Positions 7,062-31,785 of a stretch of 64,000 bases of DNA are shown here, one piece after another (the first letter of the stretch is position 1; the number at the start of each line of letters is the position of its first letter). Location of the stretch: contig CAZWYF010000007.1 of the NCBI GenBank assembly GCA_964637835.1, positions 7,486 to 71,485 on the forward strand, read 5' to 3'. Both the position numbers and the translations under genes were made by a program. Source of the DNA: an uncultured Fibrobacteraceae bacterium (GTDB lineage: Bacteria > Krumholzibacteriota > Krumholzibacteriia > LZORAL124-64-63). The notes below the pieces were generated by a model, which saw nothing but the letters and a program-made list of their open reading frames with translations, ran no database searches and was not told the DNA's origin.

Positions 7062-8072
7062 ATGCCCATCCCCGACGACAAGAACCTGCGCAAGGCGGCG
7101 GTCTTCATCATGGCCCTGGGGCCCGAGGCCGGCGGCCGCGTTCTGGCCTGTCTGGCCGAGGACCTGGTCGAGCGCGTGACCCATGCCATCGCCCACGCCG
7201 GCCAGGTGCCGTTCACGGAGAAGAAGCAGGTGCTGTCGGACTTCGTGCGCCTGTCCAGCTCCATCTCGGGCATCGCCTTCGGTGGCGAGGAGACCGCCAA
7301 GAACATCCTCGAGGCCGGCTTCGGCACCCACCGCGCCAGCTCCCTGCTCAGCCGGGTGACCAGCTACAGCCAGATCAAGAGCTTCGAGCACCTGCGGAGC
7401 CTCGATGCGCTGACCGTGGCCAACTACCTGAAGAACGAGCACGCCCAGACCGTGGCCGTGGTCCTCGCGCACATGGATCCGCGCGACAGTGGCCCCATCC
7501 TCGAGCTGCTGCCGGCCGAGCTGCAGGGCGAGGTGGCCTACCGCATGGCCGTCCTGGACTCCCCCAATGCCGACGCCCTGGCCGTGGTGGAGGAGGTGCT
7601 GGCCACCCAGTTGCAGGGCGAGGTCAACGCCAGTCGCGGCAAGTACGGCGGCCGCAAGCAGGTGGCGGAGATCCTCAACGAGACCGAGCGGGAGACCTGG
7701 CAGGAGATCCTCGACGAGATGCGCGAGATCGACGACGAGGTGGCCAACGAGGTCAACAACCTGATGTTCGTCTTCGAGGACATCATCCTGCTCAATGACA
7801 AGTACATCCAGGAGATCCTCAAGGAGATCGACGGCAAGGAGCTCACGCTGGCGCTCAAGGGCGCCACCGAGGAGATCCAGGAGAAGATCTTCGGCAACAT
7901 GTCCAAGCGCGCAGCGCTGGGCATCAAGGAGGACATGGAGTACATGGGCCCGATCCGCCTCAGCGAGGTGGAGGAGGCCCAGCAACGCATCGTGGAGGTG
8001 GTGCGCAGCCTCGAGGAGGCCGGCACCATCGTCATCGGCAAGGGGGGCAAGGATGCAGAGATGGTGTCCTGA
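7062..8072 (+). CDS. fliG: Flagellar motor switch protein FliG
   Basis: 336 aa. RKAAVFIMALGPEAGGRVL start. C-terminal torque-generating region EVVRSLEEAGTIVI. Confidence 0.9.
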   Translation: MPIPDDKNLRKAAVFIMALGPEAGGRVLACLAEDLVERVTHAIAHAGQVPFTEKKQVLSDFVRLSSSISGIAFGGEETAKNILEAGFGTHRASSLLSRVTSYSQIKSFEHLRSLDALTVANYLKNEHAQTVAVVLAHMDPRDSGPILELLPAELQGEVAYRMAVLDSPNADALAVVEEVLATQLQGEVNASRGKYGGRKQVAEILNETERETWQEILDEMREIDDEVANEVNNLMFVFEDIILLNDKYIQEILKEIDGKELTLALKGATEEIQEKIFGNMSKRAALGIKEDMEYMGPIRLSEVEEAQQRIVEVVRSLEEAGTIVIGKGGKDAEMVS

Positions 8073-10720: not shown

Positions 10721-11236
10721 ATGAAGAGCGTGCTGATCATCTCCAGCGTGACCTTCCTGCTGATCTTCGGCGGCGTCGCGGCGCTGGTCCTGACGCTGGG
10801 GGATCGGGGGTCTGACGCTCCCGCCGCCGACACCGGCGCCCCCGGGGCGGAGCGGTTGCTGCGCGACGCTGCGGCGGAACGCGACCGGCTGCAGCGCCAG
10901 GGCGAGGAACTGGCGCGCCTGGAAGGGGCGTACGCCGCGCGCGAGGCGCTCATGAGCCGCATCCACAACCAGTTGCTCGAGACCATCGGCAAGCTCGAGA
11001 AGCAGCAGGACGTGTACATCGAGGAGCAGGAGCAGGCGTCCGTGCGACTGGCCAAGATGTACGAGGCCATGAAGGCCGACCGGGCCGCCATGATCCTCTC
11101 GGCACTCGAACTCGACATCACCGTCGCCATCCTCGCCAGGATGAAGGAACGCGCGGCCGCGGAGGTCCTGTCCTTCATGGACGCCGGCCTCGCCGCGCAG
11201 ATCAGCACCCGGCTCAGCCTGCAGGGAGGTGCCTGA
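10721..11236 (+). CDS. YlxF/FlbB-like flagellar protein (single N-terminal TM, MgtE_N/FliG-like helical domain)
   Basis: TM segment VLIISSVTFLLIFGGVAALVL. C-terminal AAMILSALELDITVAILARMKERAAAEVLSFMD. Sits in the fliJ-to-fliK slot occupied by ylxF in Bacillus. Confidence 0.5.
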   Translation: MKSVLIISSVTFLLIFGGVAALVLTLGDRGSDAPAADTGAPGAERLLRDAAAERDRLQRQGEELARLEGAYAAREALMSRIHNQLLETIGKLEKQQDVYIEEQEQASVRLAKMYEAMKADRAAMILSALELDITVAILARMKERAAAEVLSFMDAGLAAQISTRLSLQGGA

Positions 11237-22900: not shown

Positions 22901-25018
22901 TTGGATCAGGACAGGGTCATCAGCAGAGACCTCGTGCTGGCCAACAGCAACATCATGAGCGCCGTGGCCGTGCTGGTCATTCTCGCGCTCATGGTGATCC
23001 CGGTCTCACCGGTCATGCTGGACGTCCTGATGACCTTCAGCATCGCCCTGGCCGTGGTCGTCATGCTGGTGTCGCTCTACCTGAAGGAACCGCTGCAGTT
23101 CAGCACCTTCCCCTCGCTGCTGCTGGTGATGACGCTGTTCCGGCTGGCGCTGAACGTGGCCAGCACGCGCCTGATCCTCAGCCGGGGCGAGGCGGGGCAG
23201 GTGGTGCAGAGCTTCGGCGACTTCGTCATCGGCGGGAACTACGTCATCGGGGTGATCGTGTTCGTGATCCTGGTGATCGTGAACTTCCTGGTGATCACCA
23301 AGGGCTCCACGCGCATCGCCGAGGTCTCCGCGCGGTTCACGCTGGACGCCATGCCCGGCAAGCAGATGGCCATCGATGCGGATCTCAATGCCGGGATGAT
23401 CACCGAGATCCAGGCCCGGCAGCGTCGCGAGAAGATCTCCAACGAGGCCGAGTTCTTCGGCGCCATGGACGGCGCCAGCAAGTTCGTGCGCGGCGACGCC
23501 ATCGCCGGCATCATCATCACCCTGATCAACATCATCGGCGGCTTCATCATCGGCATGGCCCAGCTGGGCATGACCGGCACCGAGGCCCTGGGCCGCTTCA
23601 CGCTGCTGACCGTGGGCGACGGCCTGGTCAGTCAGGTGCCGGCCCTGCTGGTCTCCACCGCCGCCGGCCTCGTGGTCACCCGTTCGAGCAGCGACCTCAA
23701 CTTCGGCGAGGCCCTCACCCTGCAGATCTTCCGGCAGGGCAAGGCGCTGGACATCGCCGCCGTGGCGCTGGTGGTCCTGGGGCTGGTCCCGGGCATGCCC
23801 ACGTTCCCGTTCGTCATCCTGGGCGGCGGCACCTTCGCCGCCGGCCGCATTCTCGGCAAGCGCGTGGCCAACGCCGAGCGCCAGGACGCCGAGGCGGAGG
23901 CTGCGGCCACCGCCGAGGCCGACGCGCCACCGGCGGGCGATGGGCCGCGCGGGGAGGACCTCTTCGTGCTCGACCGCATGGAACTGGAGATCGGCTACGG
24001 ACTGATCGGCCTGGTGGACGAGTCCCGCGGCGGCGATCTGCTGCAACGCATCGGCAACATCCGCCGCCAGATCTCCTCGGAACTGGGAATCTTCATCCAC
24101 CCGATCCGCGTCCGCGACAACCTGCAGCTACCGGCTGGCGGGTACGTGATCAAGCTCAAGGGCGTGCCCATCGCCAGCGCCGAGCTGCGCGCCGGGCAGT
24201 TGCTGGCCATGAGCACGCAACCCGACTGCGGCGACCTCGCCGGCGTGCCCACCACCGAGCCGGCCTTCAACCTGCCGGCCGTGTGGATCGACGCCGACCG
24301 CCGCGCCGAGGCCGAGGCCGAGGGCTACACGGTGGTCGAGGCCCCGGCCGTCCTCGCCACCCACCTCTCGGAGCTGATCCGCGCCCATGCCGACGAGCTC
24401 CTCAGCCGCCAGGACATCCGCGACATGCTCGAGTCGGTCCGCGAGTTCGCTCCAGCGCTGATCGAGGAGCTGATCCCGGACAAGGTGCCGGTCAACACGC
24501 TCCACAACGTGCTACGCAACCTGCTGCACGAGCGGATCCCGGTCCGCGACATCGTCTCCATCCTCGAGACCATCGCCAACCACATGGGTCCCGGGGCCGG
24601 GAGCGACCTCTTGACCGGCAAGGTCCGCGAGGCCCTGCACCGCACCATCAGCCAGCTGTACGCCGATCCCGATGGTGCCCTGCACGTGGTGAGCCTGCAT
24701 CCGGAGACGGAGCAGACCATCCTGGAGGCCTCGCGCCAGAGCGAGCAGTCCGGCCAGGTGGTGCTCTCGCCGCGCTTCACCCAGGAGTTCCTCGGGCGCC
24801 TGGACCAGGCCCTGCGCGGCGCCTATGGCGCCGGCGCACCCCCGGTGCTGCTGGTGCCCACGCCCGTCCGCTTCTTCGTCAAGCGACTCGTCGAAACCAC
24901 GTATCCCAACCTGGCCGTGATGGGCTACACGGAGGTCGCCTCCTCCGTGCGAATCCAGTCGGCCGGAACGGTGGTCACCCATGGTCACAACCAGCACGAG
25001 CAACAGGCCGTCGGCTGA
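22901..25018 (+). CDS. flhA: Flagellar biosynthesis protein FlhA
   Basis: 705 aa. TTG start with RBS aggaga. FHIPEP motif SARFTLDAMPGKQMAIDADL. Cytoplasmic C-domain. Confidence 0.9.
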   Translation: MDQDRVISRDLVLANSNIMSAVAVLVILALMVIPVSPVMLDVLMTFSIALAVVVMLVSLYLKEPLQFSTFPSLLLVMTLFRLALNVASTRLILSRGEAGQVVQSFGDFVIGGNYVIGVIVFVILVIVNFLVITKGSTRIAEVSARFTLDAMPGKQMAIDADLNAGMITEIQARQRREKISNEAEFFGAMDGASKFVRGDAIAGIIITLINIIGGFIIGMAQLGMTGTEALGRFTLLTVGDGLVSQVPALLVSTAAGLVVTRSSSDLNFGEALTLQIFRQGKALDIAAVALVVLGLVPGMPTFPFVILGGGTFAAGRILGKRVANAERQDAEAEAAATAEADAPPAGDGPRGEDLFVLDRMELEIGYGLIGLVDESRGGDLLQRIGNIRRQISSELGIFIHPIRVRDNLQLPAGGYVIKLKGVPIASAELRAGQLLAMSTQPDCGDLAGVPTTEPAFNLPAVWIDADRRAEAEAEGYTVVEAPAVLATHLSELIRAHADELLSRQDIRDMLESVREFAPALIEELIPDKVPVNTLHNVLRNLLHERIPVRDIVSILETIANHMGPGAGSDLLTGKVREALHRTISQLYADPDGALHVVSLHPETEQTILEASRQSEQSGQVVLSPRFTQEFLGRLDQALRGAYGAGAPPVLLVPTPVRFFVKRLVETTYPNLAVMGYTEVASSVRIQSAGTVVTHGHNQHEQQAVG

Positions 25019-26132
25019 GTCCGCGGCGGTGGTGGAAGCGCCCACGCTGAAGGAGGCGCTCAAGCAGGTCCGGGCGCGGTACGGTGAGGACGCGCGCGTG
25101 ATCCGCAGCCGCACCCTCACGCGTCGTCAGCCCGGCGGCCTCGGCCAGCAGAAGATGGTGGAGGTGCTGGTCGAGCCCAGCAGCGGTCGCGGGCGCGGAT
25201 CGGGCGCGGCGGCCGGGTCGGGAAGCGGGGGCGCGCCCGCGGCCGGCTCGCGCCTGGCGCGGGAGATCGCCGCCGAGGTGCAGCGCATCGAGGACCTCGT
25301 CCGGCAGATCGCCGTGGGCGAGGCCGGGCAGGATCACCGGCGCCGGGCCGTGCAGGCCAATCCCGTCAGCGAGGCCCTGGTGGCCGCCGGAGCGGATCCC
25401 GGCGTGGTCGTCCGGCTGGGCGAGCGATGCCAGGCGGAGACGGGCGCCGCGCCCGGCGACCGGACCGCACTGCTGGAATACCTCGCCCGCAGCCTGCCCA
25501 CCGGTCGCGGGACCTGGCAGGACCTGGGTGGAACCCACGTCTTCCTGGGCGGACCCGGCTGCGGGCGCACCGAGCTGCTGCTGCAATCGGCGGCACGCCT
25601 GGTCGCGGCCGGGCGGTCGGTGCTGGTGCTGTCGGTGCTGCCGCGGCATGCCGGGGAGATCCGCCGCCTGCAGGCCGAGGCTGCGCAGCAGGGCTACGAC
25701 GCGGCGGTGATCCAGAAGCCGCGCCAGTTCGCGGCGGCCGCCGAGCACCTCGAGCGCTACGACGTGGTGCTCATCGACGCGCCAGCCTTCGGGCGTATCG
25801 GCGATGCCGGCGCCGAGGCCCTGCGGCGCGAGATGGTCCAGAACCCGGCCCTGCACCGGCATCTGGTCTTCCCGCTCGATCGCGACCTGCGCGACTGCCA
25901 GGAGCTGTTCGCCGCCGCGCGGGCCTGGAACTGCGACTGGGTGGCGCTCAGCCGGCTGGACCAGTGTGCCCGCCGCGGCAAGATCCTCGACCTGGTGGAC
26001 CGCCTGCCGTTGCCCGTCTCCCTGACCGGCGACGCGAACTGGCCCGATGGCGAGCCGCGCATCGCCAGCCCGGGGCAGTTGACCGAGTTGATCCTCGGCG
26101 CCGCCGCCCAGCGCGACGCGGCCAACGCCTAG
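24981..26132 (+). CDS. flhF: Flagellar biosynthesis protein FlhF homologue (SRP-type GTPase fold with degenerate G1/G3/G4 motifs)
   Basis: 383 aa. Position after flhA. SRP54-type fold: LGGPGCGRTELLL (Lys to Arg in P-loop), VLIDAPAFGRIGD (DTAG degenerate), SRLDQC (TKLD degenerate). Confidence 0.7.
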   Translation: MVTTSTSNRPSAESAAVVEAPTLKEALKQVRARYGEDARVIRSRTLTRRQPGGLGQQKMVEVLVEPSSGRGRGSGAAAGSGSGGAPAAGSRLAREIAAEVQRIEDLVRQIAVGEAGQDHRRRAVQANPVSEALVAAGADPGVVVRLGERCQAETGAAPGDRTALLEYLARSLPTGRGTWQDLGGTHVFLGGPGCGRTELLLQSAARLVAAGRSVLVLSVLPRHAGEIRRLQAEAAQQGYDAAVIQKPRQFAAAAEHLERYDVVLIDAPAFGRIGDAGAEALRREMVQNPALHRHLVFPLDRDLRDCQELFAAARAWNCDWVALSRLDQCARRGKILDLVDRLPLPVSLTGDANWPDGEPRIASPGQLTELILGAAAQRDAANA

Positions 26133-26145
26133 GCAGGAGGGAACC

Positions 26146-26538
26146 ATGCGACGGCTCGTCCAGACCATCGCCCTGGGAGCGGCCCTGCTGGCCGTCGGCA
26201 GCGGCGTCTGGCGCGATTACGACACGTTGATGGTGCTGCGACGGGCGATCACGGCCTACCTCGCCGCCTACCTCGTCGGCGGGGTGCTGGTGCTGGTGGC
26301 CCGCGCGGCCCTCGGCGCCGTGGCCGATCCGCCGCCGCCGCCGCCGGAACCGGAGGCGGACCGGCGCAAGCGGCGCTCCAGGCGCCAGTCACGAGGACCG
26401 GCGAGGAACGCGCCGGATCCCGATCCCGCGGACGCCACCGGAGCCCCGGCGACCGCCACGGAGCCGCTGGCGTCGGCGCCGGAGACCGCGACCCCCGACG
26501 CGCCATCGCCGGAGCCTGCCCCGGCCCCGTCGCGGTGA
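26146..26538 (+). CDS. Hypothetical small membrane protein (two TM helices plus Pro/Ala-rich tail)
   Basis: 130 aa. IALGAALLAVGSGVW and AYLAAYLVGGVLVLVARAAL hydrophobic segments. Good GC3 codon bias. Confidence 0.45.
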   Translation: MRRLVQTIALGAALLAVGSGVWRDYDTLMVLRRAITAYLAAYLVGGVLVLVARAALGAVADPPPPPPEPEADRRKRRSRRQSRGPARNAPDPDPADATGAPATATEPLASAPETATPDAPSPEPAPAPSR

Positions 26539-26597: not shown

Positions 26598-27557
26598 ATG
26601 AGCGACAAGCCCGTGATCGCCCATCAGGACATCTGGCAGCGTTACGACGCCGAGGGCTGCCAGCGAGCTCGCCAGGAACTGGTCGAGAAGTACGCGCGCA
26701 TCGTCAAGTACGTGGCCGGCCGCATGGCCATCGGCTTGCCGCACTACGTGGAGTTCAACGACCTGGTCTCGGCCGGCCTGCTCGGCCTGATCCAGGCGAT
26801 CGACAACTTCGACCACACGCGCGGCATCAAGTTCGAGACGTACGCCATCCCGCGCATCCGTGGCGCCATCCTCGATGAGCTCCGCAGTCAGGACTGGTTC
26901 CCGCGCAGCTTGCGGCGCAAGGCCAAGCAGCTCGAGGAGGCCTACGCCACCCTCGAGGCCCGCCTCGGCCGGCCGGCCACCGACAAGGAGGTGGCCGCCG
27001 AGCTCCAGGTGGAGGTCTCCGAGCTCGACGGCATCGTGGGCGAGGTGGCCGTGGCCACGATCATGTCCCTGGATGCCGATGCCTCGAGCGACGAGAGCGA
27101 GCAGTCCACCAGTCTGGGCGATTACATCGCCGACCCCAAGGCCGAGGATCTGGAGAAGGTGATCGCCGCCCAGGAGATGCGGCAGATCATCGCCCAGCGC
27201 ATGGCCGAGCTGCCAGAGAAGGAGCAGCTGGTCCTGGTGCTCTACTACTACGAGGAGCTGACGCTCAAGGAGATCGGCGAGATCCTCGACGTCACCGAGA
27301 GCCGCGTCTGCCAGATCCACACCAAGGCCATCATGCGCCTCAAGGGGAAGATCCAGCGGCACGAGGGACGGCAGTCCATCGGCCGGCTCACCGAGCAGAT
27401 CCGCCGCCAGCAGCCTCCGGCCGCCGCGGCGGACCCGGCGGCCGAGCCGGTGGCCAGCCCCGCAGCCCTGGAATCGGTGAACGTGACCGCCTGTCTGCCA
27501 CTGGCGCCCCTGGCGACGGCCCTGCTGGCAGCGACCCTCGGCTTGCCGGGGGCCTAG
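26598..27557 (+). CDS. fliA: Flagellar sigma factor FliA (sigma-28/SigD) with ~60-aa C-terminal extension
   Basis: Region 2 (DLVSAGLLGLIQAIDNFD), region 3, region 4.2 HTH (LKEIGEILDVTESRVCQIHTKAIMRLK). 319 aa, versus ~240-260 typical. Confidence 0.85.
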   Translation: MSDKPVIAHQDIWQRYDAEGCQRARQELVEKYARIVKYVAGRMAIGLPHYVEFNDLVSAGLLGLIQAIDNFDHTRGIKFETYAIPRIRGAILDELRSQDWFPRSLRRKAKQLEEAYATLEARLGRPATDKEVAAELQVEVSELDGIVGEVAVATIMSLDADASSDESEQSTSLGDYIADPKAEDLEKVIAAQEMRQIIAQRMAELPEKEQLVLVLYYYEELTLKEIGEILDVTESRVCQIHTKAIMRLKGKIQRHEGRQSIGRLTEQIRRQQPPAAAADPAAEPVASPAALESVNVTACLPLAPLATALLAATLGLPGA

Positions 27558-27572
27558 CGATCGGAGCGCGCC

Positions 27573-27905
27573 GTGGCCGGCGACGGGGTGTCCCTGCAGA
27601 CCAACATCGCCCAGCTCGGCACCGTGGCCAAGACCCAGGCCCGAGGTCAGCAGGGTCACGCCGTGGCGCCAGGGCAGAAGCCCGGCCAGGCCGACGACGT
27701 CCAGCCGCTCCAGAAGGTGAAGGAAGGCGAGAAGGCGGACCCCGAGGGCCTCGAGCCGGAGCAGCGGCGCGAACGTGATCGCCGGCGGGGTGATCGGGAT
27801 CCCCAGGAAGCCGCCGCCGACACCGGGACGGACGGCGAGGACGCCGAGGACGAGGACGACGACGAGGCGCCGTGGCTCGGCGGACACATCGACATCAAGG
27901 CCTGA
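27573..27905 (+). CDS. Hypothetical acidic, low-complexity protein (110 aa)
   Basis: Strong GC3 codon bias supports coding. DEDDDEAPWLGGHIDIKA C-terminus. No recognisable family. Confidence 0.4.
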   Translation: MAGDGVSLQTNIAQLGTVAKTQARGQQGHAVAPGQKPGQADDVQPLQKVKEGEKADPEGLEPEQRRERDRRRGDRDPQEAAADTGTDGEDAEDEDDDEAPWLGGHIDIKA

Positions 27906-27925
27906 CCGACCAGGAGGATCTGCCC

Positions 27926-28378
27926 GTGGAACTGACCAGCCTGCTCGCCGCCGCCCGCGCCCAGGGCCCCGTCTTCTGGGCCGCGACCGGCGCCATCGCT
28001 CTCGGCCTGACGCTCCTGCTGGTGGCCGTCCTGCACCGCTTGCCCCGGCCCCGGCGCCGTCGGCGGACCAGGACGGAGACCGGGCCGCCGGCTTCGAGCC
28101 CGGCGGCGAGCGCCCCCGAAGTCGCGGCCGCGGCGCAGGCCCGCACGGCCTATCAGGACGCTCCGGCCGCGCCCCGGGGCGTCCTCGCCAGCCCGGGACT
28201 GGATCACGACCCGGCCGAGCGCTCCCTGGCCCTGCTCCTGCGCCGTCTGCAGAGCGCCGGCGACCGCCTGGAGGAACTGGCCGGCAGCGTTCCGGCCGCG
28301 GATCTCGCCGCCCCGCAATCGGGACTCAAGGACGCTGCCCCGGACGTCGAATATGTCTTCAGGGCGTGCGGTCCGTAA
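27926..28378 (+). CDS. Hypothetical membrane-anchored protein (150 aa)
   Basis: GTG start 8 nt after a perfect AGGAGG. TM segment VFWAATGAIALGLTLLLVAVL followed by a poly-Arg stretch. Codon usage coding-like. Confidence 0.45.
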   Translation: MELTSLLAAARAQGPVFWAATGAIALGLTLLLVAVLHRLPRPRRRRRTRTETGPPASSPAASAPEVAAAAQARTAYQDAPAAPRGVLASPGLDHDPAERSLALLLRRLQSAGDRLEELAGSVPAADLAAPQSGLKDAAPDVEYVFRACGP

Positions 28379-28417: not shown

Positions 28418-29299
28418 ATGCTGGACACCGAGGCCACGTCGCGGCCCGAGACCGACGACCCTCAGCTCAAGCAGCTCATCATGGCCATCCGGGACCTGCC
28501 GGCGATGCCTCACGTCGCCAGCAAGGTCCTCGAGCTGTCGTCCGATCCGGACACCTCCGCCGCGCTCCTGCAGCAGGTCATCGCCGACGACCAGGCCATG
28601 ACCGCCCGCATCCTGAAGATCGCCAACTCCGCCATGTACGCCTGCAGCCGGCGCATCAAGACGCTCTCCGAGGCCATCGTGATGCTCGGCTTCAACAGCA
28701 TCCGCTCGCTGGTGGTCACGAGCGCCGCCCGCAACCTCTATGGCGGGAACAACGCGCGCATGGGACTCAAGGAGCGGCTGCTCTGGGAGCACAGCATCGG
28801 CTGCGCCTTCGCCTGCCGCGTGCTGGCCACCGGACGCCATCCCGCCCTGGCGGAGGAAGCCTTCCTGGCCGGCCTGATGCACGACATCGGCAAGCTGGTG
28901 CTCAACCTCCAGCTACCGGACCAGTTCGAGGAGATCGTCCAGATCGTCTACAACGAGAACCGGGAGTTCCATCACACCGAACAGGAGCTCCTGGGCTTCG
29001 ACCATGCCCGGGTGGGCGCCCTCCTGGTGAGCAAGTGGAAGCTCTCGCCGCTGCTCGAGGAGGTCATCGGCCTGCACCACGACGAGGACAGCCTCGCACC
29101 CGACCGGCCGCTGCTCCTGTACCTCGACCTGGCCAACCGCCTCTGTCAGAAGTACGGCATCGGCTTCCAGGAGTTGCCGGACCTGGACCTCGCGAACTGC
29201 CGGAGCGCCCGCATCCTCGGACTCGACGCCGCCGCCATCGACGACGCGGCGCAACGCCTGCAACAGACCCTGGAGACCGAGATGGAGGTCTTCGTCTAG
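28418..29299 (+). CDS. HDOD-domain signalling protein
   Basis: PAMPHVASKVLEL...ARILKIANSAMY...LMHDIGKLVL...GFDHARVGALL are HDOD (HD-related output domain) motifs. Confidence 0.8.
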   Translation: MLDTEATSRPETDDPQLKQLIMAIRDLPAMPHVASKVLELSSDPDTSAALLQQVIADDQAMTARILKIANSAMYACSRRIKTLSEAIVMLGFNSIRSLVVTSAARNLYGGNNARMGLKERLLWEHSIGCAFACRVLATGRHPALAEEAFLAGLMHDIGKLVLNLQLPDQFEEIVQIVYNENREFHHTEQELLGFDHARVGALLVSKWKLSPLLEEVIGLHHDEDSLAPDRPLLLYLDLANRLCQKYGIGFQELPDLDLANCRSARILGLDAAAIDDAAQRLQQTLETEMEVFV

Positions 29300-29309
29300 G
29301 AGGACCGCG

Positions 29310-30179
29310 ATGAGCACCCAGGATCGCCACCCATCGCTCGCGGAGCTGCGCGATTCGATCCAGGAATTGCCCACCATCCCGGAGACGCTCAGCCGGATCC
29401 TCAGCCTGCTCGAGGACCCCAACAGCGGCGCGCGCGATCTGGCCGAGGTGATCCGCGGCGACGCGCCCCTGGCGGCCAAGATCCTCCGGCTCGCCAACTC
29501 GCCGCTGTATCGCAAGCAGCGGGCCATCGGTACGATCCAGGAGTGCGTGTCCGTGCTCGGCTACCGCACCGTCCGGCAGGTGGCCCTCTGCGTCTCGGTC
29601 ATCTCCACCCTCGGCCAGGAGTGCGAGGCCCGCGGCGCCCGCATCGACTATCGCGATCTCTGGCGCCACGGCGTGGCCGTCGGCGCGGTGGCGCAGGCGC
29701 TCGCCCGGCAGGCCGGCACCTGCGACGCGGAGCTGGCCTTCACCTCCGGCCTGCTGCACGACCTCGGCAAGCTCGTCCTCGGCCTCGAGTTCCCCACCAC
29801 CTATGGCGAGCTGGTCGCCCAGCGCTGCCGCGAGGGCCGGCATCTGGTGGAGGTGGAGCGACGGGAACTGGGCTTCGATCACGCCCGGGCCGGCGAGGAA
29901 CTGGCCTCGGCCTGGAGCTTCCCCGTGGAGCTGGTCGAGCCCATCGGCGCTCACCACGAGGCCGAGCCGCCCAGCACCCTGGTCGCGGTGGTGGCCCTGG
30001 CCGACTACCTGGGCAACCTGCTGGACCCCTCGCAGGGCGACCTGGGCTTCGACGCGATGCTCGTGGACACGGCTCCGCTCTACCGGGCGGCCGGCCTGCA
30101 GCGCGAGGACGTGGAGGCCCGGCTCGATCAGCTGCGGGAGGCCATCCGCGAGGCGAGCCCGCTGCGGAATCTCGACTGA
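29310..30179 (+). CDS. HDOD-domain signalling protein (paralogue of the preceding gene)
   Basis: PTIPETLSRILSLL...AKILRLANSPLY...LLHDLGKLVL...GFDHARAGEELA. Same architecture as the upstream paralogue. Confidence 0.8.
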   Translation: MSTQDRHPSLAELRDSIQELPTIPETLSRILSLLEDPNSGARDLAEVIRGDAPLAAKILRLANSPLYRKQRAIGTIQECVSVLGYRTVRQVALCVSVISTLGQECEARGARIDYRDLWRHGVAVGAVAQALARQAGTCDAELAFTSGLLHDLGKLVLGLEFPTTYGELVAQRCREGRHLVEVERRELGFDHARAGEELASAWSFPVELVEPIGAHHEAEPPSTLVAVVALADYLGNLLDPSQGDLGFDAMLVDTAPLYRAAGLQREDVEARLDQLREAIREASPLRNLD

Positions 30180-30267
30180 ATGACCGCAGAAAACCCCTGG
30201 CCCCGTCCAGCAACCTTGCTATGATCCCCTGCGGGCGGCCCGTCGGAACGCCCGATCGAGGAGATCC

Positions 30268-31785
30268 ATGCCTGCACGCGACCTGATCCTGCTCAGCCGC
30301 CAGGCGTCGCTCTACGCGGCGGTGGCGGCCTGGAAGCTCGCCGACACCGAGATCTACGCCTTCGAGGACGCCGCAGCCGCGGTCTCCCGCGCCGCCACGG
30401 GTGCGGCGGCGGTGGTGGTCTTCGACACGCGCGGATTCCCCGCCGTGCGCGCCACCCTCAATCGCCTGCTGGCCGTGGGCGGCGACACGGACGTGGTGGT
30501 GCTCGGCCCCGGCGAGGAGCTGGGCGGCGACGCCCTGCATCCCGAGAGCGGCACCCTCCGTTTCCTGCCGCCGGACACGCCGACCGCCGAGTTGCAGTCG
30601 GTGGTGGAGCTCCTGCTGCGGATGCGCCGGGTCCGCCGCGAGGGCGGCATCGTGGGCCGGTCGCGGGCCGTGGGGCAGATGATCGCCCTGATCGCCCAGG
30701 CCGCGCCCATCGACGTCAACGTCCTGATCACCGGCGAGAGCGGCACGGGCAAGGAGCTGGTGGCCCGGGGCATCCATCGCATCTCCCGGCGACGGGACGG
30801 TCCATTCCTGGGCCTCAACTGCGGCGCCCTCAGCGAGGGGGTGCTCGAGAGCGAGCTCTTCGGCCATGTCCGCGGCGCCTTCACCGGCGCGGTCGCGGCC
30901 CATGACGGGGTCTTCAAGCGCGCCGACGGTGGCACCCTCTTCCTCGACGAGGTGGGCGAGATGCCGCTGGGCATGCAGACCCGCTTCTTGCGCGCCCTGG
31001 AGACCGGCGAGTTCACGCCCGTCGGCGGCAAGGGGATCCTCCGCAGCGACACCCGGCTGGTGGCCGCCACCAACCGCGACCTCGTCCGGGAGGTGGAGGC
31101 GGGCCGCTTCCGCCAGGATCTCTACTACCGCCTGCGGGTGATCGTCATCGAGACGCCGCCGCTGCGCGAGCGCCAGGAGGACATCCCCATCCTGGCCGAT
31201 CACTTCCTGGAGCAGGAGAACCGTGAACACGGGCTGGCGGTCCGTGGTTTCAGCCGCCACGCCAAGCAGCAGCTGCGCGCCTATGCGTGGCCCGGCAACA
31301 TCCGGGAGCTGCGCAACGTGATCCGCGCGGCGGTGGTCATGAAGCAACGCGGCCTGATCGAGGTGGACGATCTCCAGCTCGACCGCGGCGGTCGCGGCGA
31401 GGCGAGCTCGGCGTTCCTGCCCATGATCGTCGACCAGGGAGCGGCCCACGAGCGGCTGGACCCCGGCGTGCTGGCGTCCACGCTGCTGGAGCTGCGTCAG
31501 GACATCAAGGAGATCAAGGCTCGCCTGGAGGCCCTCACCGGCGCGCCCGGGGCCGGCGGCGGGCTGGGGGGGGCGATCCCGGCCGAGGGGCGGGTGGTGG
31601 AGACCCTCCTGCACGAGCAGGGCCTGGAGCCTCCCGAGGGCGGCGGCGACCTGCAGAGCGCCGAGAAGGCCCTCATCGCCGCGGCGCTGGAGGCCACCGG
31701 CGGCAACCGCCGCCGGGCGGCCCAGCGGCTGGGCATCAGCGAGCGGACCCTGTACCGCAAGCTCAAGCATTACGAACTCGGATGA
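30268..31785 (+). CDS. Sigma-54-dependent transcriptional activator with degenerate (FleQ-like) receiver domain, AAA+ domain, ~100-aa linker and Fis-type HTH
   Basis: [26 protein letters not shown]-terminal [18 protein letters not shown]. The N-terminal domain lacks the acidic DD pocket (DLILLSRQ). Confidence 0.8.

What the first reader, a model, noticed from the sequence alone, without database searches (positions are those of the whole stretch)
24981..26538. FlhF homologue with degenerate GTPase motifs and no FlhG partner
- The protein after flhA has SRP-GTPase (FlhF) topology, but the catalytic motifs are altered.
- G1 is GGPGCGRT (Walker-A Lys replaced by Arg).
- G3 DTAG is replaced by DAPAFG.
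- G4 TKLD is replaced by SRLD.
- The MinD-like ATPase FlhG (YlxH) that normally follows flhF is absent. Its slot holds a 130-aa two-TM protein with a Pro-rich tail.
- This suggests a pseudo-GTPase FlhF used as a scaffold, with a different or absent flagellar number/placement control system.
Basis: partly seen in the sequence, partly recalled or inferred. Interest (0 to 1): 0.7.

Follow-up and report, generated by a model that had tools for sequence, protein, structure and literature searches.

The report
FlhF without GTPase motifs or FlhG
The flagellar placement protein FlhF of this uncultured Krumholzibacteriota bacterium keeps its fold and its FliG-binding head but has lost the residues needed to split GTP, and its usual partner FlhG is missing from the operon in about 40 related species, so the textbook FlhF/FlhG switch appears to have become a switch-less scaffold in this lineage.

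Summary
ORF 24981-26132 (383 aa) directly follows and overlaps flhA. Its closest solved relatives, by profile and by fold, are FlhF structures. It keeps an N-terminal domain whose best PDB match is the FlhF FliG-interacting domain.

Three independent alignments give the same motif register:
- G1 is GGPGCGRT (Lys to Arg).
- G3 DTAG is DAPA.
- G4 TKxD is SRLD.
- G5 is gone.

No canonical motif lies offset elsewhere in the protein.

G2 is lost in all 63 family members, and some wider relatives have no P-loop at all. No MinD/FlhG-type gene occurs in the 64-kb window or within 10 kb in about 50 related loci. A control locus with canonical FlhF has FlhG immediately downstream.

The 130-aa membrane ORF is conserved across the clade. 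It probably sat beside flhG ancestrally and does not replace it.

Best reading: a selected, hydrolysis-dead FlhF acting as a scaffold. Nucleotide binding and genome-wide absence of FlhG remain untested. This is a new variant of a known kind, of moderate interest.

The parts
22901..25018 (+). flhA (export-gate protein, 705 aa). Its last 38 nt overlap the start of the FlhF-like gene.
   Evidence: Translation. FHIPEP domain in the orthologous genes of related loci. The overlap is conserved in related loci.
24981..26132 (+). FlhF orthologue with degenerate GTPase motifs (383 aa).
25026..25175 (+). N-terminal FID-like domain (residues 16-65; three beta-strands and one helix). It is the most conserved part of the protein.
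   Evidence: AF2 secondary structure. Foldseek top PDB hit is 9en1, the FliG-interacting domain of S. putrefaciens FlhF (TM 0.79, rmsd 2.7 A, probability 1.00, E 0.14). Majority-residue frequency is 0.76.
25176..25250 (+). Gly/Ala/Ser-rich linker (residues 66-90), poorly conserved and of low model confidence.
   Evidence: pLDDT is below 50 for residues 70-87. Conservation is 0.27.
25251..26066 (+). NG domain (N domain about residues 91-178, G domain about 179-362) with SRP-GTPase fold.
   Evidence: Foldseek matches: Ffh/FtsY NG domains, FlhF 2px3 (TM normalised to target 0.75) and 8r9r (0.78). Family profile against PDB sequences ranks FlhF first: 2px0 5.8e-9, 8r9r 6.8e-8, Ffh 3.8e-5.
25548..25571 (+). 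G1/P-loop GGPGCGRT. The Walker-A Lys is replaced by Arg196.
   Evidence: In the family the position is R in 41, K in 21 and T in 1 of 63 sequences.
25638..25658 (+). Former G2 region LPRHAGE, replacing DTYRIAA. The catalytic Asp and Arg are lost. P221, H223 and G225 are invariant in the family.
25776..25787 (+). Former G3, DAPA replacing DTAG. The Asp is kept, the Gly is lost, and the Pro is invariant.
25854..25862 (+). Family-specific H292-R293-H294 at the start of the strand equivalent to LVLSAT.
   Evidence: R293 and H294 are invariant and H292 is at least 90% conserved. Absent from canonical FlhF.
25926..25940 (+). Family-specific WNCDW motif before the G4 strand.
   Evidence: It is the signature used by the genome scan.
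25950..25961 (+). Former G4, SRLD replacing TKxD.
   Evidence: In the family the Lys position is R in 59, K in 1, H in 2 and G in 1 of 63 sequences. The Asp is invariant.
26146..26538 (+). Conserved small membrane protein (130 aa). The N-terminal ~60 residues contain two hydrophobic segments. The tail is basic and Pro-rich, and varies between lineages.
26598..27557 (+). fliA/whiG sigma-28 factor, which follows the small ORF in the related loci that extend far enough.
7062..8072 (+). fliG, the presumed binding partner of the FID-like domain.
   Evidence: Pfam FliG_N, FliG_M and FliG_C. The FID-FliG interaction is taken from PMC11236974.

Best explanation
This is the FlhF orthologue of a Krumholzibacteriota-type bacterium. 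It has become a catalytically dead pseudo-GTPase, and this goes together with loss of its GTPase activator FlhG.

Shown:
- It sits in the FlhF position, translationally overlapping flhA and upstream of fliA.
- It has the FlhF architecture: FID-like head, disordered linker, NG fold.
- It is intact and conserved in about 40 species.
- It lacks the G2 Asp and Arg, the G3 Gly, the G4 Lys, G5 and, in this sub-clade, the P-loop Lys.
- No FlhG gene is nearby in any member.

Inferred:
- It cannot run a GTP-hydrolysis cycle.
- It acts as a constitutive adaptor. The strongly conserved FID head holds FliG and the nascent MS/C-ring.
- The remodelled NG domain carries new invariant residues (P221, H223, R228/R229, HRH 292-294, D300/D302, WNCDW 316-320). 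It serves as a nucleotide-independent or hydrolysis-independent docking module for the membrane, the FlhA export gate or the adjacent small membrane protein.
- Release of FliG and control of flagellar number must then be achieved without the FlhG-triggered switch.
For: Orthology:
- Synteny flhB-flhA-flhF*-small ORF-fliA.
- TIGR03499 FlhF is the best NCBIfam hit.
- The family profile hits FlhF structures ahead of Ffh.
- The NG fold is recovered.
- The N-terminal domain's top PDB hit is the FlhF FliG-interacting domain 9en1.

Selection:
- 34 columns are invariant across the 61 aligned sequences, which are 39-91% identical to the window protein.
- The FID-like domain is the most conserved region.
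- The ORF is intact in nearly all of about 50 loci; the one apparently frameshifted copy (L045) was not examined.

Motif loss:
- Among the 63 family members none has the G2 Asp, and Pro221 and His223 are in all 63. The G3 Gly is kept in only 10. The G4 Lys is kept in only 1.
- Erosion is stepwise. P-loop Lys always goes with G3 'DT' (21 of 21). Arg mostly goes with 'DA' (33 of 41). All sequences at least 57% identical to the window protein have Arg, except one with Thr.
- Seven representatives in the wider clade have no recognisable P-loop, for example SEHSADRLD and GYSRPQRQE.
- Other P-loop NTPases in the window keep their Lys.

FlhG:
- None in the 64-kb window or in about 50 loci with up to 10 kb of flank. 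No DQAxxLR anywhere in them.
- The probes find FlhG at 1e-45 in the control locus L052.
- Pfam shows a ParA-type ATPase right after flhF in three loci with intact G2.
- It is absent after every G2-less FlhF checked.

Literature:
- FlhG's DQAxxLR helix activates the FlhF GTPase, and flhG is 'consistently' directly downstream of flhF (PMC12826062).
Against: - No biochemistry was done. The glycine frame of the P-loop, the Ser/Thr after the Lys/Arg, the G3 Asp and the G4 Asp stay almost invariant in the family. Nucleotide binding, or binding of some phosphate ligand, may therefore persist.
- Absence of FlhG was tested only in the window and within 10 kb in relatives, not genome-wide.
- G4 Lys to Arg and Pro in G3 also occur in FlhFs that retain G2, and one FlhF with the G4 change has FlhG downstream. 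Those two changes alone do not prove inactivity.
- In the canonical model GTP hydrolysis releases FliG. The scaffold model leaves that release step unexplained.
Confidence: 0.65

Rival explanations
1. It is still a working nucleotide switch with unconventional chemistry. Arg196 would replace the Walker Lys, and His223 or Arg228/229 would replace the G2 catalytic residues. The activator would be something other than a neighbouring FlhG: a distant MinD/FlhG gene, the small membrane protein, or FlhA.
For: The P-loop glycines, Thr197, Asp266 and Asp327 are invariant or nearly so. New invariant His and Arg residues sit exactly in the former G2 region. 21 of 63 family members, and most of the more distant G2-less clades, keep GxxGxGK[ST].
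Against: Four or five motifs are altered at once. Seven relatives have lost the P-loop entirely yet keep the rest of the protein. No FlhG or DQAxxLR occurs in about 50 loci. Lys and Arg interchange freely at the key P-loop position.
Confidence: 0.17
2. The NG domain has been re-purposed as a sensor for a different ligand. The ligand could be a metal bound by the His/Cys/Asp residues of HRH and WNCDW, or a nucleotide second messenger bound in the remodelled pocket. Ligand binding would then control flagellar assembly.
For: There are family-specific invariant residues: H223, H292-R293-H294, D300, D302, C318, D319, W316 and W320. Solved Ffh and FtsY complexes with ppGpp appear among the structural matches. 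Two HDOD proteins and a GGDEF gene lie in the conserved neighbourhood.
Against: This is purely inferential. No coordinates were available to check that these residues cluster. C318 is replaced in more distant G2-less clades. No ligand-binding family matches the protein.
Confidence: 0.1
3. It is a decaying remnant (a functionless pseudogene in the making), or an SRP-GTPase paralogue unrelated to FlhF.
For: Scores against curated models are low: TIGR03499 gives 71 bits against a cut-off of 174, and Pfam SRP54 is barely above its threshold.
Against: The ORF is intact, with conserved length, in about 40 species spanning 39-91% identity. There are 34 invariant columns and a conserved overlap with flhA. 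The FlhF-specific FID domain is retained. FlhF structures are the best profile hits.
Confidence: 0.04

Closest known systems
Canonical FlhF (B. subtilis 2PX0/2PX3; S. putrefaciens 8R9R NG domain and 9EN1 FID)
   Same: Gene position after flhA. FID-linker-NG architecture and NG fold. These are the best profile and fold matches.
   Different: G1 Lys to Arg, G2 DTxR lost, G3 Gly lost, G4 Lys to Arg, G5 lost. No FlhG downstream. The linker is short. The FID is the most conserved part, whereas the G domain is described as the conserved part in canonical FlhF (PMC12713375).
Bacillus cereus FlhF (a species reported to have no FlhG homologue)
   Same: FlhF operates without FlhG (PMC7218170).
   Different: [quoted passage not shown] The protein here has lost the residues for that chemistry.
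Engineered hydrolysis-deficient FlhF mutants (P. aeruginosa, V. alginolyticus)
   Same: They show that FlhF can still direct flagellar localisation without GTP hydrolysis (summarised in PMC12713375).
   Different: Those are single laboratory substitutions in a system that still has FlhG, and they still bind GTP. Here the loss is natural, affects several motifs, and is lineage-wide.
PseudoGTPases (catalytically inactive GTPase-fold domains, e.g. in p190RhoGAP and AAGAB)
   Same: The GTPase fold is retained with degenerate G motifs and is used for protein-protein interaction (PMC5593906 and PMC12490416, listed).
   Different: Those belong to the Ras-like (TRAFAC) class. I found no paper describing an SRP-family or FlhF pseudoGTPase.
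FipA (FlhF-interacting membrane protein of gamma-proteobacteria)
   Same: The 130-aa ORF is likewise a small membrane protein encoded next to flhF in the motility operon.
   Different: FipA has one transmembrane segment plus a cytoplasmic DUF2802 domain, and occurs only with FlhF and FlhG (PMC11620751). The ORF here has two hydrophobic segments, no Pfam hit at all (so no DUF2802), and a variable tail.

Membership tests
FlhF (flagellar SRP-type GTPase) | Encoded directly downstream of flhA in a flagellar operon | tested here: met
   flhA 22901-25018 overlaps the ORF start at 24981. The same arrangement occurs in about 50 related loci.
FlhF (flagellar SRP-type GTPase) | NG-domain fold of SRP GTPases, closest to FlhF | tested here: met
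   AF2 model with pLDDT 87. Foldseek gives 2px3 TM 0.75 and 8r9r TM 0.78. The profile ranks FlhF chains first.
FlhF (flagellar SRP-type GTPase) | N-terminal FliG-interacting domain (three antiparallel strands and one helix) | tested here: met
   The domain model's top PDB hit is 9en1 FID (TM 0.79, probability 1.00, but E 0.14 because the domain is short). Binding to FliG itself was not tested.
FlhF (flagellar SRP-type GTPase) | Score above the curated equivalog cut-off (TIGR03499) | tested here: not met
   71.1 bits against a cut-off of 174.15.
FlhF (flagellar SRP-type GTPase) | G1 GxxGxGK[ST] | tested here: not met
   GGPGCGRT. Arg196 replaces the Lys.
FlhF (flagellar SRP-type GTPase) | G2 DTxR (catalytic Asp and Arg of the insertion box) | tested here: not met
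   LPRH. None of the 63 family members has the Asp or the Arg.
FlhF (flagellar SRP-type GTPase) | G3 DTAG and G4 TKxD | tested here: not met
   DAPA and SRLD. Only the two Asp residues are kept.
FlhF (flagellar SRP-type GTPase) | flhG (MinD-type ATPase with DQAxxLR helix) directly downstream | tested here: not met
   None in the window or in about 50 related loci. The positive control L052 was detected.
FlhF (flagellar SRP-type GTPase) | GTP-dependent homodimerisation and GTP hydrolysis | not testable with these tools
   Requires purified protein.
PseudoGTPase (functional class) | GTPase fold with catalytic motifs lost, yet under purifying selection | tested here: met
PseudoGTPase (functional class) | Demonstrated lack of hydrolysis, with or without nucleotide binding | not testable with these tools
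   Biochemical assay needed.
FipA (for the 130-aa ORF) | Single N-terminal transmembrane segment plus cytoplasmic DUF2802 domain | tested here: not met
   No Pfam hit at E<=0.1. Two hydrophobic segments. FipA definition from PMC11620751.

The most novel reading that the evidence does not exclude
A whole bacterial lineage (Krumholzibacteriota and allied uncultured groups) has replaced the FlhF/FlhG nucleotide switch with a switch-less system. The FlhF NG domain has been rebuilt into a nucleotide-independent, or new-ligand-dependent, docking module. It works with the conserved small membrane protein and the FlhA gate. In the sampled loci, loss of the G2 catalytic residues always goes with absence of FlhG. 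This natural experiment would imply that the GTPase cycle of FlhF exists only to be controlled by FlhG. It would also point to an unknown mechanism for releasing FliG and for counting flagella.
Probability: 0.3. Interest if true: 0.7.

Novelty: new variant of a known kind. Interest (0 to 1): 0.55.

Why it matters
FlhF and FlhG are presented as a conserved, always-paired switch that sets where and how many flagella are made (PMC12826062). A selected, lineage-wide FlhF without catalytic motifs and without FlhG separates the protein's scaffold role from its GTPase cycle. The scaffold role is FliG capture through the FID domain plus docking through the NG domain.

It also gives a set of natural variants for biochemistry:
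- P-loop Lys with G2 lost.
- P-loop Arg with G2 lost.
- No P-loop at all.

It raises a concrete question: how is FliG handed over to FliM/FliN, and how is flagellar number limited, when neither GTP hydrolysis nor FlhG is available?

There is also an annotation point. These proteins are mostly annotated as hypothetical or fall below curated thresholds, so automated surveys of FlhF/FlhG distribution may miss them.

Tried and rejected
- Single-sequence phmmer against PDB sequences gave only low-complexity Gly/Ser-linker matches. The family profile was needed.
- The N-terminal domain profile against PDB sequences returned only artificial alphaRep/HEAT repeats through a short 'G.LG.E..VE.L' resemblance. 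I treated these as chance. The fold search was informative instead.
- The afdb50 fold library was unavailable.
- Model coordinates are not exposed. I therefore could not measure whether HRH, WNCDW and H223 cluster or where they lie relative to the pocket.
- FipA-like identity of the 130-aa ORF was rejected: no DUF2802 and a different topology.
- The idea that the 130-aa ORF replaces FlhG was weakened. A similar ORF follows flhG in canonical locus L052. This rests on one locus and marginal scores.
- The in-frame FlhF-small-ORF fusion in L035 was considered as evidence of interaction. I rejected it as a probable long-read indel, because the close relatives L033 and L034 are not fused.
- GC or Arg-rich composition as the cause of Lys196Arg was rejected as a sufficient explanation. 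Other P-loop NTPases in the window keep their Lys.
- Genome-wide search for FlhG in Krumholzibacteriota was not possible.


Full report
WHAT IS THERE

The window has about 71% G+C. It carries one long plus-strand flagellar cluster:
- a weak FlgN-like ORF, a histidine-kinase fragment and a sigma-54 response regulator;
- FlgC, FliE, FliF, FliG, FliH, FliI, FliJ, FliK, FlgD, FlgE and FlbD;
- MotA, MotB, FliL, FliM, FliN and FliP, then three ORFs that I did not scan here but which correspond in position and size to FliQ, FliR and FlhB of the related loci, then FlhA.

The ORF of the finding, 24981-26132 (383 aa, ATG), begins 38 nt before the flhA stop codon. It is followed by:
- a 130-aa ORF (26146-26538) with an AGGAGG ribosome-binding site;
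- fliA (26598-27557);
- two small ORFs, two HDOD proteins and a sigma-54 activator.

Public assemblies call the same 383-aa and 130-aa products. The identical protein lies on an NCBI contig of 111,638 bp. Where its relatives carry a name, they come from Candidatus Krumholzibacteria / Krumholzibacteriota MAGs.

IS IT FlhF?

Curated models see it only weakly. Pfam SRP54 scores 23.7 bits against a cut-off of 22.7. TIGR03499 FlhF is the best NCBIfam hit but scores 71 bits against a cut-off of 174.

Other evidence supports orthology:
- A profile of 61 family members hits the two FlhF crystal-structure sequences first (2px0 5.8e-9; 8r9r 6.8e-8), ahead of Ffh (3.8e-5).
- An AlphaFold2 model built on the family alignment is confident (pLDDT 87.2, pTM 0.79). 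It shows a small N-terminal alpha/beta domain, a disordered linker and an NG domain.
- Foldseek places the NG part among Ffh, FtsY and FlhF. The highest target-normalised TM-scores are for FlhF (0.75 for 2px3; 0.78 for 8r9r).
- The N-terminal domain was modelled alone (pLDDT 80.6). It has three strands and one helix. Its top hit among 350,542 PDB chains is 9en1, 'FliG interacting domain of SpFlhF (FID)' (TM 0.79, rmsd 2.7 A, probability 1.00). The E-value is only 0.14 because the domain is short.
- This matches the published description of the FID: three antiparallel strands and one helix, with the first 60 residues necessary and sufficient to bind FliG (PMC11236974).

So position, architecture and both folded domains say FlhF orthologue.

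THE MOTIFS

I recalled the B. subtilis FlhF sequence from memory and verified it. Residues 79-366 are identical to PDB 2px0. The same search printed the aligned S. putrefaciens 8r9r sequence.

MAFFT of these two with 63 family members, hmmalign of about 150 representatives to the family HMM and the HMMER profile alignment to 2px0/8r9r all give one register:

| Motif | Canonical (B. subtilis) | Window protein |
|---|---|---|
| G1 | GSTGAGKT | G190-GPGCG-R196-T197 |
| G2 | D213-T-Y-R216 | L220-P-R-H223 |
| G3 | D-T-A-G | D266-A-P-A269 |
| G4 | T-K-I-D | S324-R-L-D327 |
| G5 | GQxVPED | unrecognisable |

- Its G3 'DAPAFG' is a misreading. There is no insertion, and G271 aligns with the residue after the motif.
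- It missed the G2 loss, which is the most diagnostic change.
- The Lys-to-Arg change is not a by-product of the Lys-poor, Arg-rich proteome. FliI (GSGVGKS), both sigma-54 activators (GESGTGKE) and HslU (GPTGVGKT) in the same window keep their Lys.

THE FAMILY

The word-indexed search found 63 homologues, about 39-100% identical to the window protein. A scan of one genome per GTDB species found 40 loci. They are labelled Krumholzibacteriota/-iia, 'uncultured Fibrobacteraceae', Latescibacterota, Gemmatimonas or plain 'bacterium'.

Counts across the 63 family members:
- The G2 Asp is never present, and Pro221 and His223 are invariant.
- The G3 Asp and Pro are invariant, and the Gly survives in only 10.
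- The G4 Lys survives in 1, while the G4 Asp is invariant.
- The P-loop position is Arg in 41, Lys in 21 and Thr in 1.

The P-loop residue covaries with G3. Lys always accompanies 'DT' (21 of 21). Arg mostly accompanies 'DA' (33 of 41). Every sequence at least 57% identical to the window protein has Arg, apart from one with Thr. This looks like stepwise erosion, with the window protein at the far end.

The family is clearly under selection:
- 34 columns are invariant across the 61 aligned sequences, which are 39-91% identical to the window protein.
- The FID-like domain is the most conserved part (majority-residue frequency 0.76, against 0.67 for the G domain and 0.27 for the linker).
- New family-specific invariants appear: P221, H223, G225, R228/R229, P268, H292-R293-H294, D300, D302 and W316-N-C-D-W320.

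An exhaustive profile search of 1.84 billion representatives gave 8,053 hits at E<=1e-3. Of these, 73 scored below 1e-30. Scores then fall off and level out near 1e-23, where most hits carry canonical FlhF motifs.

Among the 132 listed representatives that cover all four motifs:
- 27 are fully canonical.
- 85 lack the G2 Asp/Arg. Of these, 58 keep the P-loop Lys, 19 have Arg and 8 are classed as having neither.
- Seven of those 8 have no recognisable P-loop (for example GYSRPQRQE, SEHSADRLD, GEYPGESLD). The eighth, P0098, is a truncated sequence that still reads GSGRTD. Most of them keep the WNCDW signature and the rest of the G domain.

A fold that persists without any P-loop argues strongly that nucleotide chemistry is dispensable in this clade.

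One caution applies. [ST]RLD at G4 and DTPG at G3 also occur in many FlhFs that keep G2. Those two substitutions alone are weak evidence of inactivity.

FlhG

- Six-frame phmmer with E. coli MinD and B. subtilis YlxH probes, and the patterns KGGxGK[ST] and DQAxxLR, find nothing in the 64-kb window.
- They also find nothing in 46 related loci, each with up to 10 kb on either side. The order there is flhA, flhF-like, small ORF, fliA, followed in most loci by HDOD genes.
- More distant G2-less clades also lack flhG. These are P0107 from a Krumholzibacteriota MAG, P0108 and P0124.
- The method works. In L052, which has a fully canonical FlhF (P0147), a 309-aa ParA-type ATPase starts 8 nt before the flhF stop. 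It carries DQAEKLR and KGGVGKT and is hit by the YlxH probe at 1e-45.
- FlhG is also directly downstream of two further G2-intact FlhFs, P0132 and P0133.
- One near-canonical FlhF (P0145: DTSR, DTPG, TRLDE) is followed directly by fliA.

In this sample, every G2-less FlhF lacks a neighbouring flhG, while 3 of 4 G2-intact ones have it.

[quoted passage not shown] It also states that the Gln of FlhG's DQAxxLR helix is the co-catalytic activator of FlhF (PMC12826062). Loss of the activator together with loss of the catalytic residues it acts on is therefore coherent.

Genome-wide absence of FlhG or MinD could not be tested with the tools available.

THE 130-aa ORF

- Its first ~60 residues, with two hydrophobic segments, are conserved. 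It was detected in all but one (L044) of the related loci that extend far enough.
- A profile search returns 125 small (51-106 aa) unannotated proteins. Where they are named, they come from the same lineages.
- The tail varies. It is Pro-rich and basic here (20 Pro in 73 residues) and a charged, helix-like stretch in another sub-clade.
- It has no Pfam hit and is not FipA, which has one transmembrane segment plus DUF2802.
- In the canonical control locus, a 90-aa ORF with two hydrophobic segments sits between flhG and fliA. It matches the family weakly (HMM E=2e-4 in a small database; hhalign 62% probability, E=7e-5).

The simplest history is flhF-flhG-small ORF-fliA with flhG deleted, not FlhG replaced by the small protein. 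This rests on one locus and marginal scores. Whether the small protein interacts with the FlhF-like protein is unknown. An apparent in-frame fusion in L035 is most likely a long-read indel.

HOW IT MOST LIKELY WORKS

Shown: an FlhF orthologue that is intact and conserved. It has a strongly conserved FID-like head, a cognate fliG in the same cluster and a remodelled NG domain. It lacks the catalytic G2 and G3 residues, and no flhG is nearby.

Inferred: the protein no longer cycles through FlhG-stimulated GTP hydrolysis and acts as a constitutive adaptor.
- The FID holds FliG and, through it, FliF.
- The NG domain provides hydrolysis-independent docking. The partner could be the membrane, the FlhA gate (the genes overlap) or the adjacent small membrane protein.

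Experiments in other species make this plausible. [quoted passage not shown] B. cereus is reported to have no FlhG homologue, although its FlhF forms a GTP-dependent dimer (PMC7218170).

The weak point is the release step. In the canonical model hydrolysis frees FliG for FliM/FliN. Here another mechanism is required.

I put the pseudo-GTPase scaffold reading at about 0.65. The rivals are:
- a still-active but unconventional switch, about 0.17. The glycine frame, Thr197, Asp266 and Asp327 remain conserved, and many relatives keep the Lys;
- a re-purposed ligand sensor, about 0.1;
- a functionless remnant or a non-FlhF paralogue, about 0.04.

NOVELTY

Full-text searches combining FlhF with pseudoGTPase terms, and FlhF/FlhG with Krumholzibacteri*, found no description of a degenerate FlhF. 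The components and the fold are known, and FlhG-less FlhF has a precedent. I therefore rate this a new variant of a known kind, not a new system.

It would interest flagellar biologists as a natural separation of FlhF's scaffold and switch functions. The organisms are uncultured, and everything beyond sequence and predicted structure remains to be shown.

Noticed in passing
L035:9932-11431 (compare L033, L034): In one MAG the FlhF-like gene and the small membrane ORF form a single reading frame. The close relatives L033 and L034 have them in different, overlapping frames. The contig name (tig...) suggests a long-read assembly, so this is probably an indel artefact and not a true fusion.
   Followed up: partly
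L051:6001-8002: A near-canonical FlhF (P0145: DTSR, DTPG, TRLDE) on a 954-kb metagenome contig is followed directly by fliA, with no flhG and no small ORF. FlhG-less flhF operons therefore also exist outside the degenerate clade.
   Followed up: partly
L044:1-1392: In one Krumholzibacteriia MAG the FlhF-like gene ends at position 432 and fliA starts at 445. No small membrane ORF was detected between them, so that ORF may not be universal.
   Followed up: no
window 27573-28378 and 28418-31785: Downstream of fliA there are two small ORFs without Pfam hits (about 110 and 150 aa; one could be an anti-sigma factor), two tandem HDOD/HD proteins and a sigma-54 activator without a receiver domain. This block is conserved across the clade and in more distant G2-less lineages. 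It is a candidate for alternative control of flagellar number.
   Followed up: partly
window 26146-26538 versus L028, L032-L035, L040: The small membrane protein keeps its ~60-residue N-terminal part, but the tail differs between lineages. It is Pro-rich and basic here, and a charged stretch ('EDWQRRRAEK...EEKKRREAEKAAKKGK') in another sub-clade.
   Followed up: partly
L053:11162-11647: In a Firmicute-like canonical locus (flhF-flhG-cheB-cheC-cheD-fliA), the gene after fliA carries DUF6115 and a weak DUF2802 hit. This suggests FipA-like proteins outside gamma-proteobacteria.
   Followed up: no
P0004, P0081, P0084, P0092, P0095, P0128: Individual family members have Thr at the P-loop Lys position, or have lost the P-loop altogether (e.g. 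SEHSADRLD). They form a natural series for testing whether nucleotide binding matters.
   Followed up: partly
window 10721-11236: A 171-aa ORF between fliJ and fliK has a weak, sub-threshold MgtE_N-like match (22.5 bits against a cut-off of 25.9). I did not examine it further.
   Followed up: no
window 24975-26168 (minus strand): A 397-aa mirror ORF lies on the opposite strand of the FlhF-like gene. This is typical of high-GC DNA. The plus-strand gene has third-position GC of 0.92 and homologues, so I treat the minus-strand ORF as spurious.
   Followed up: partly
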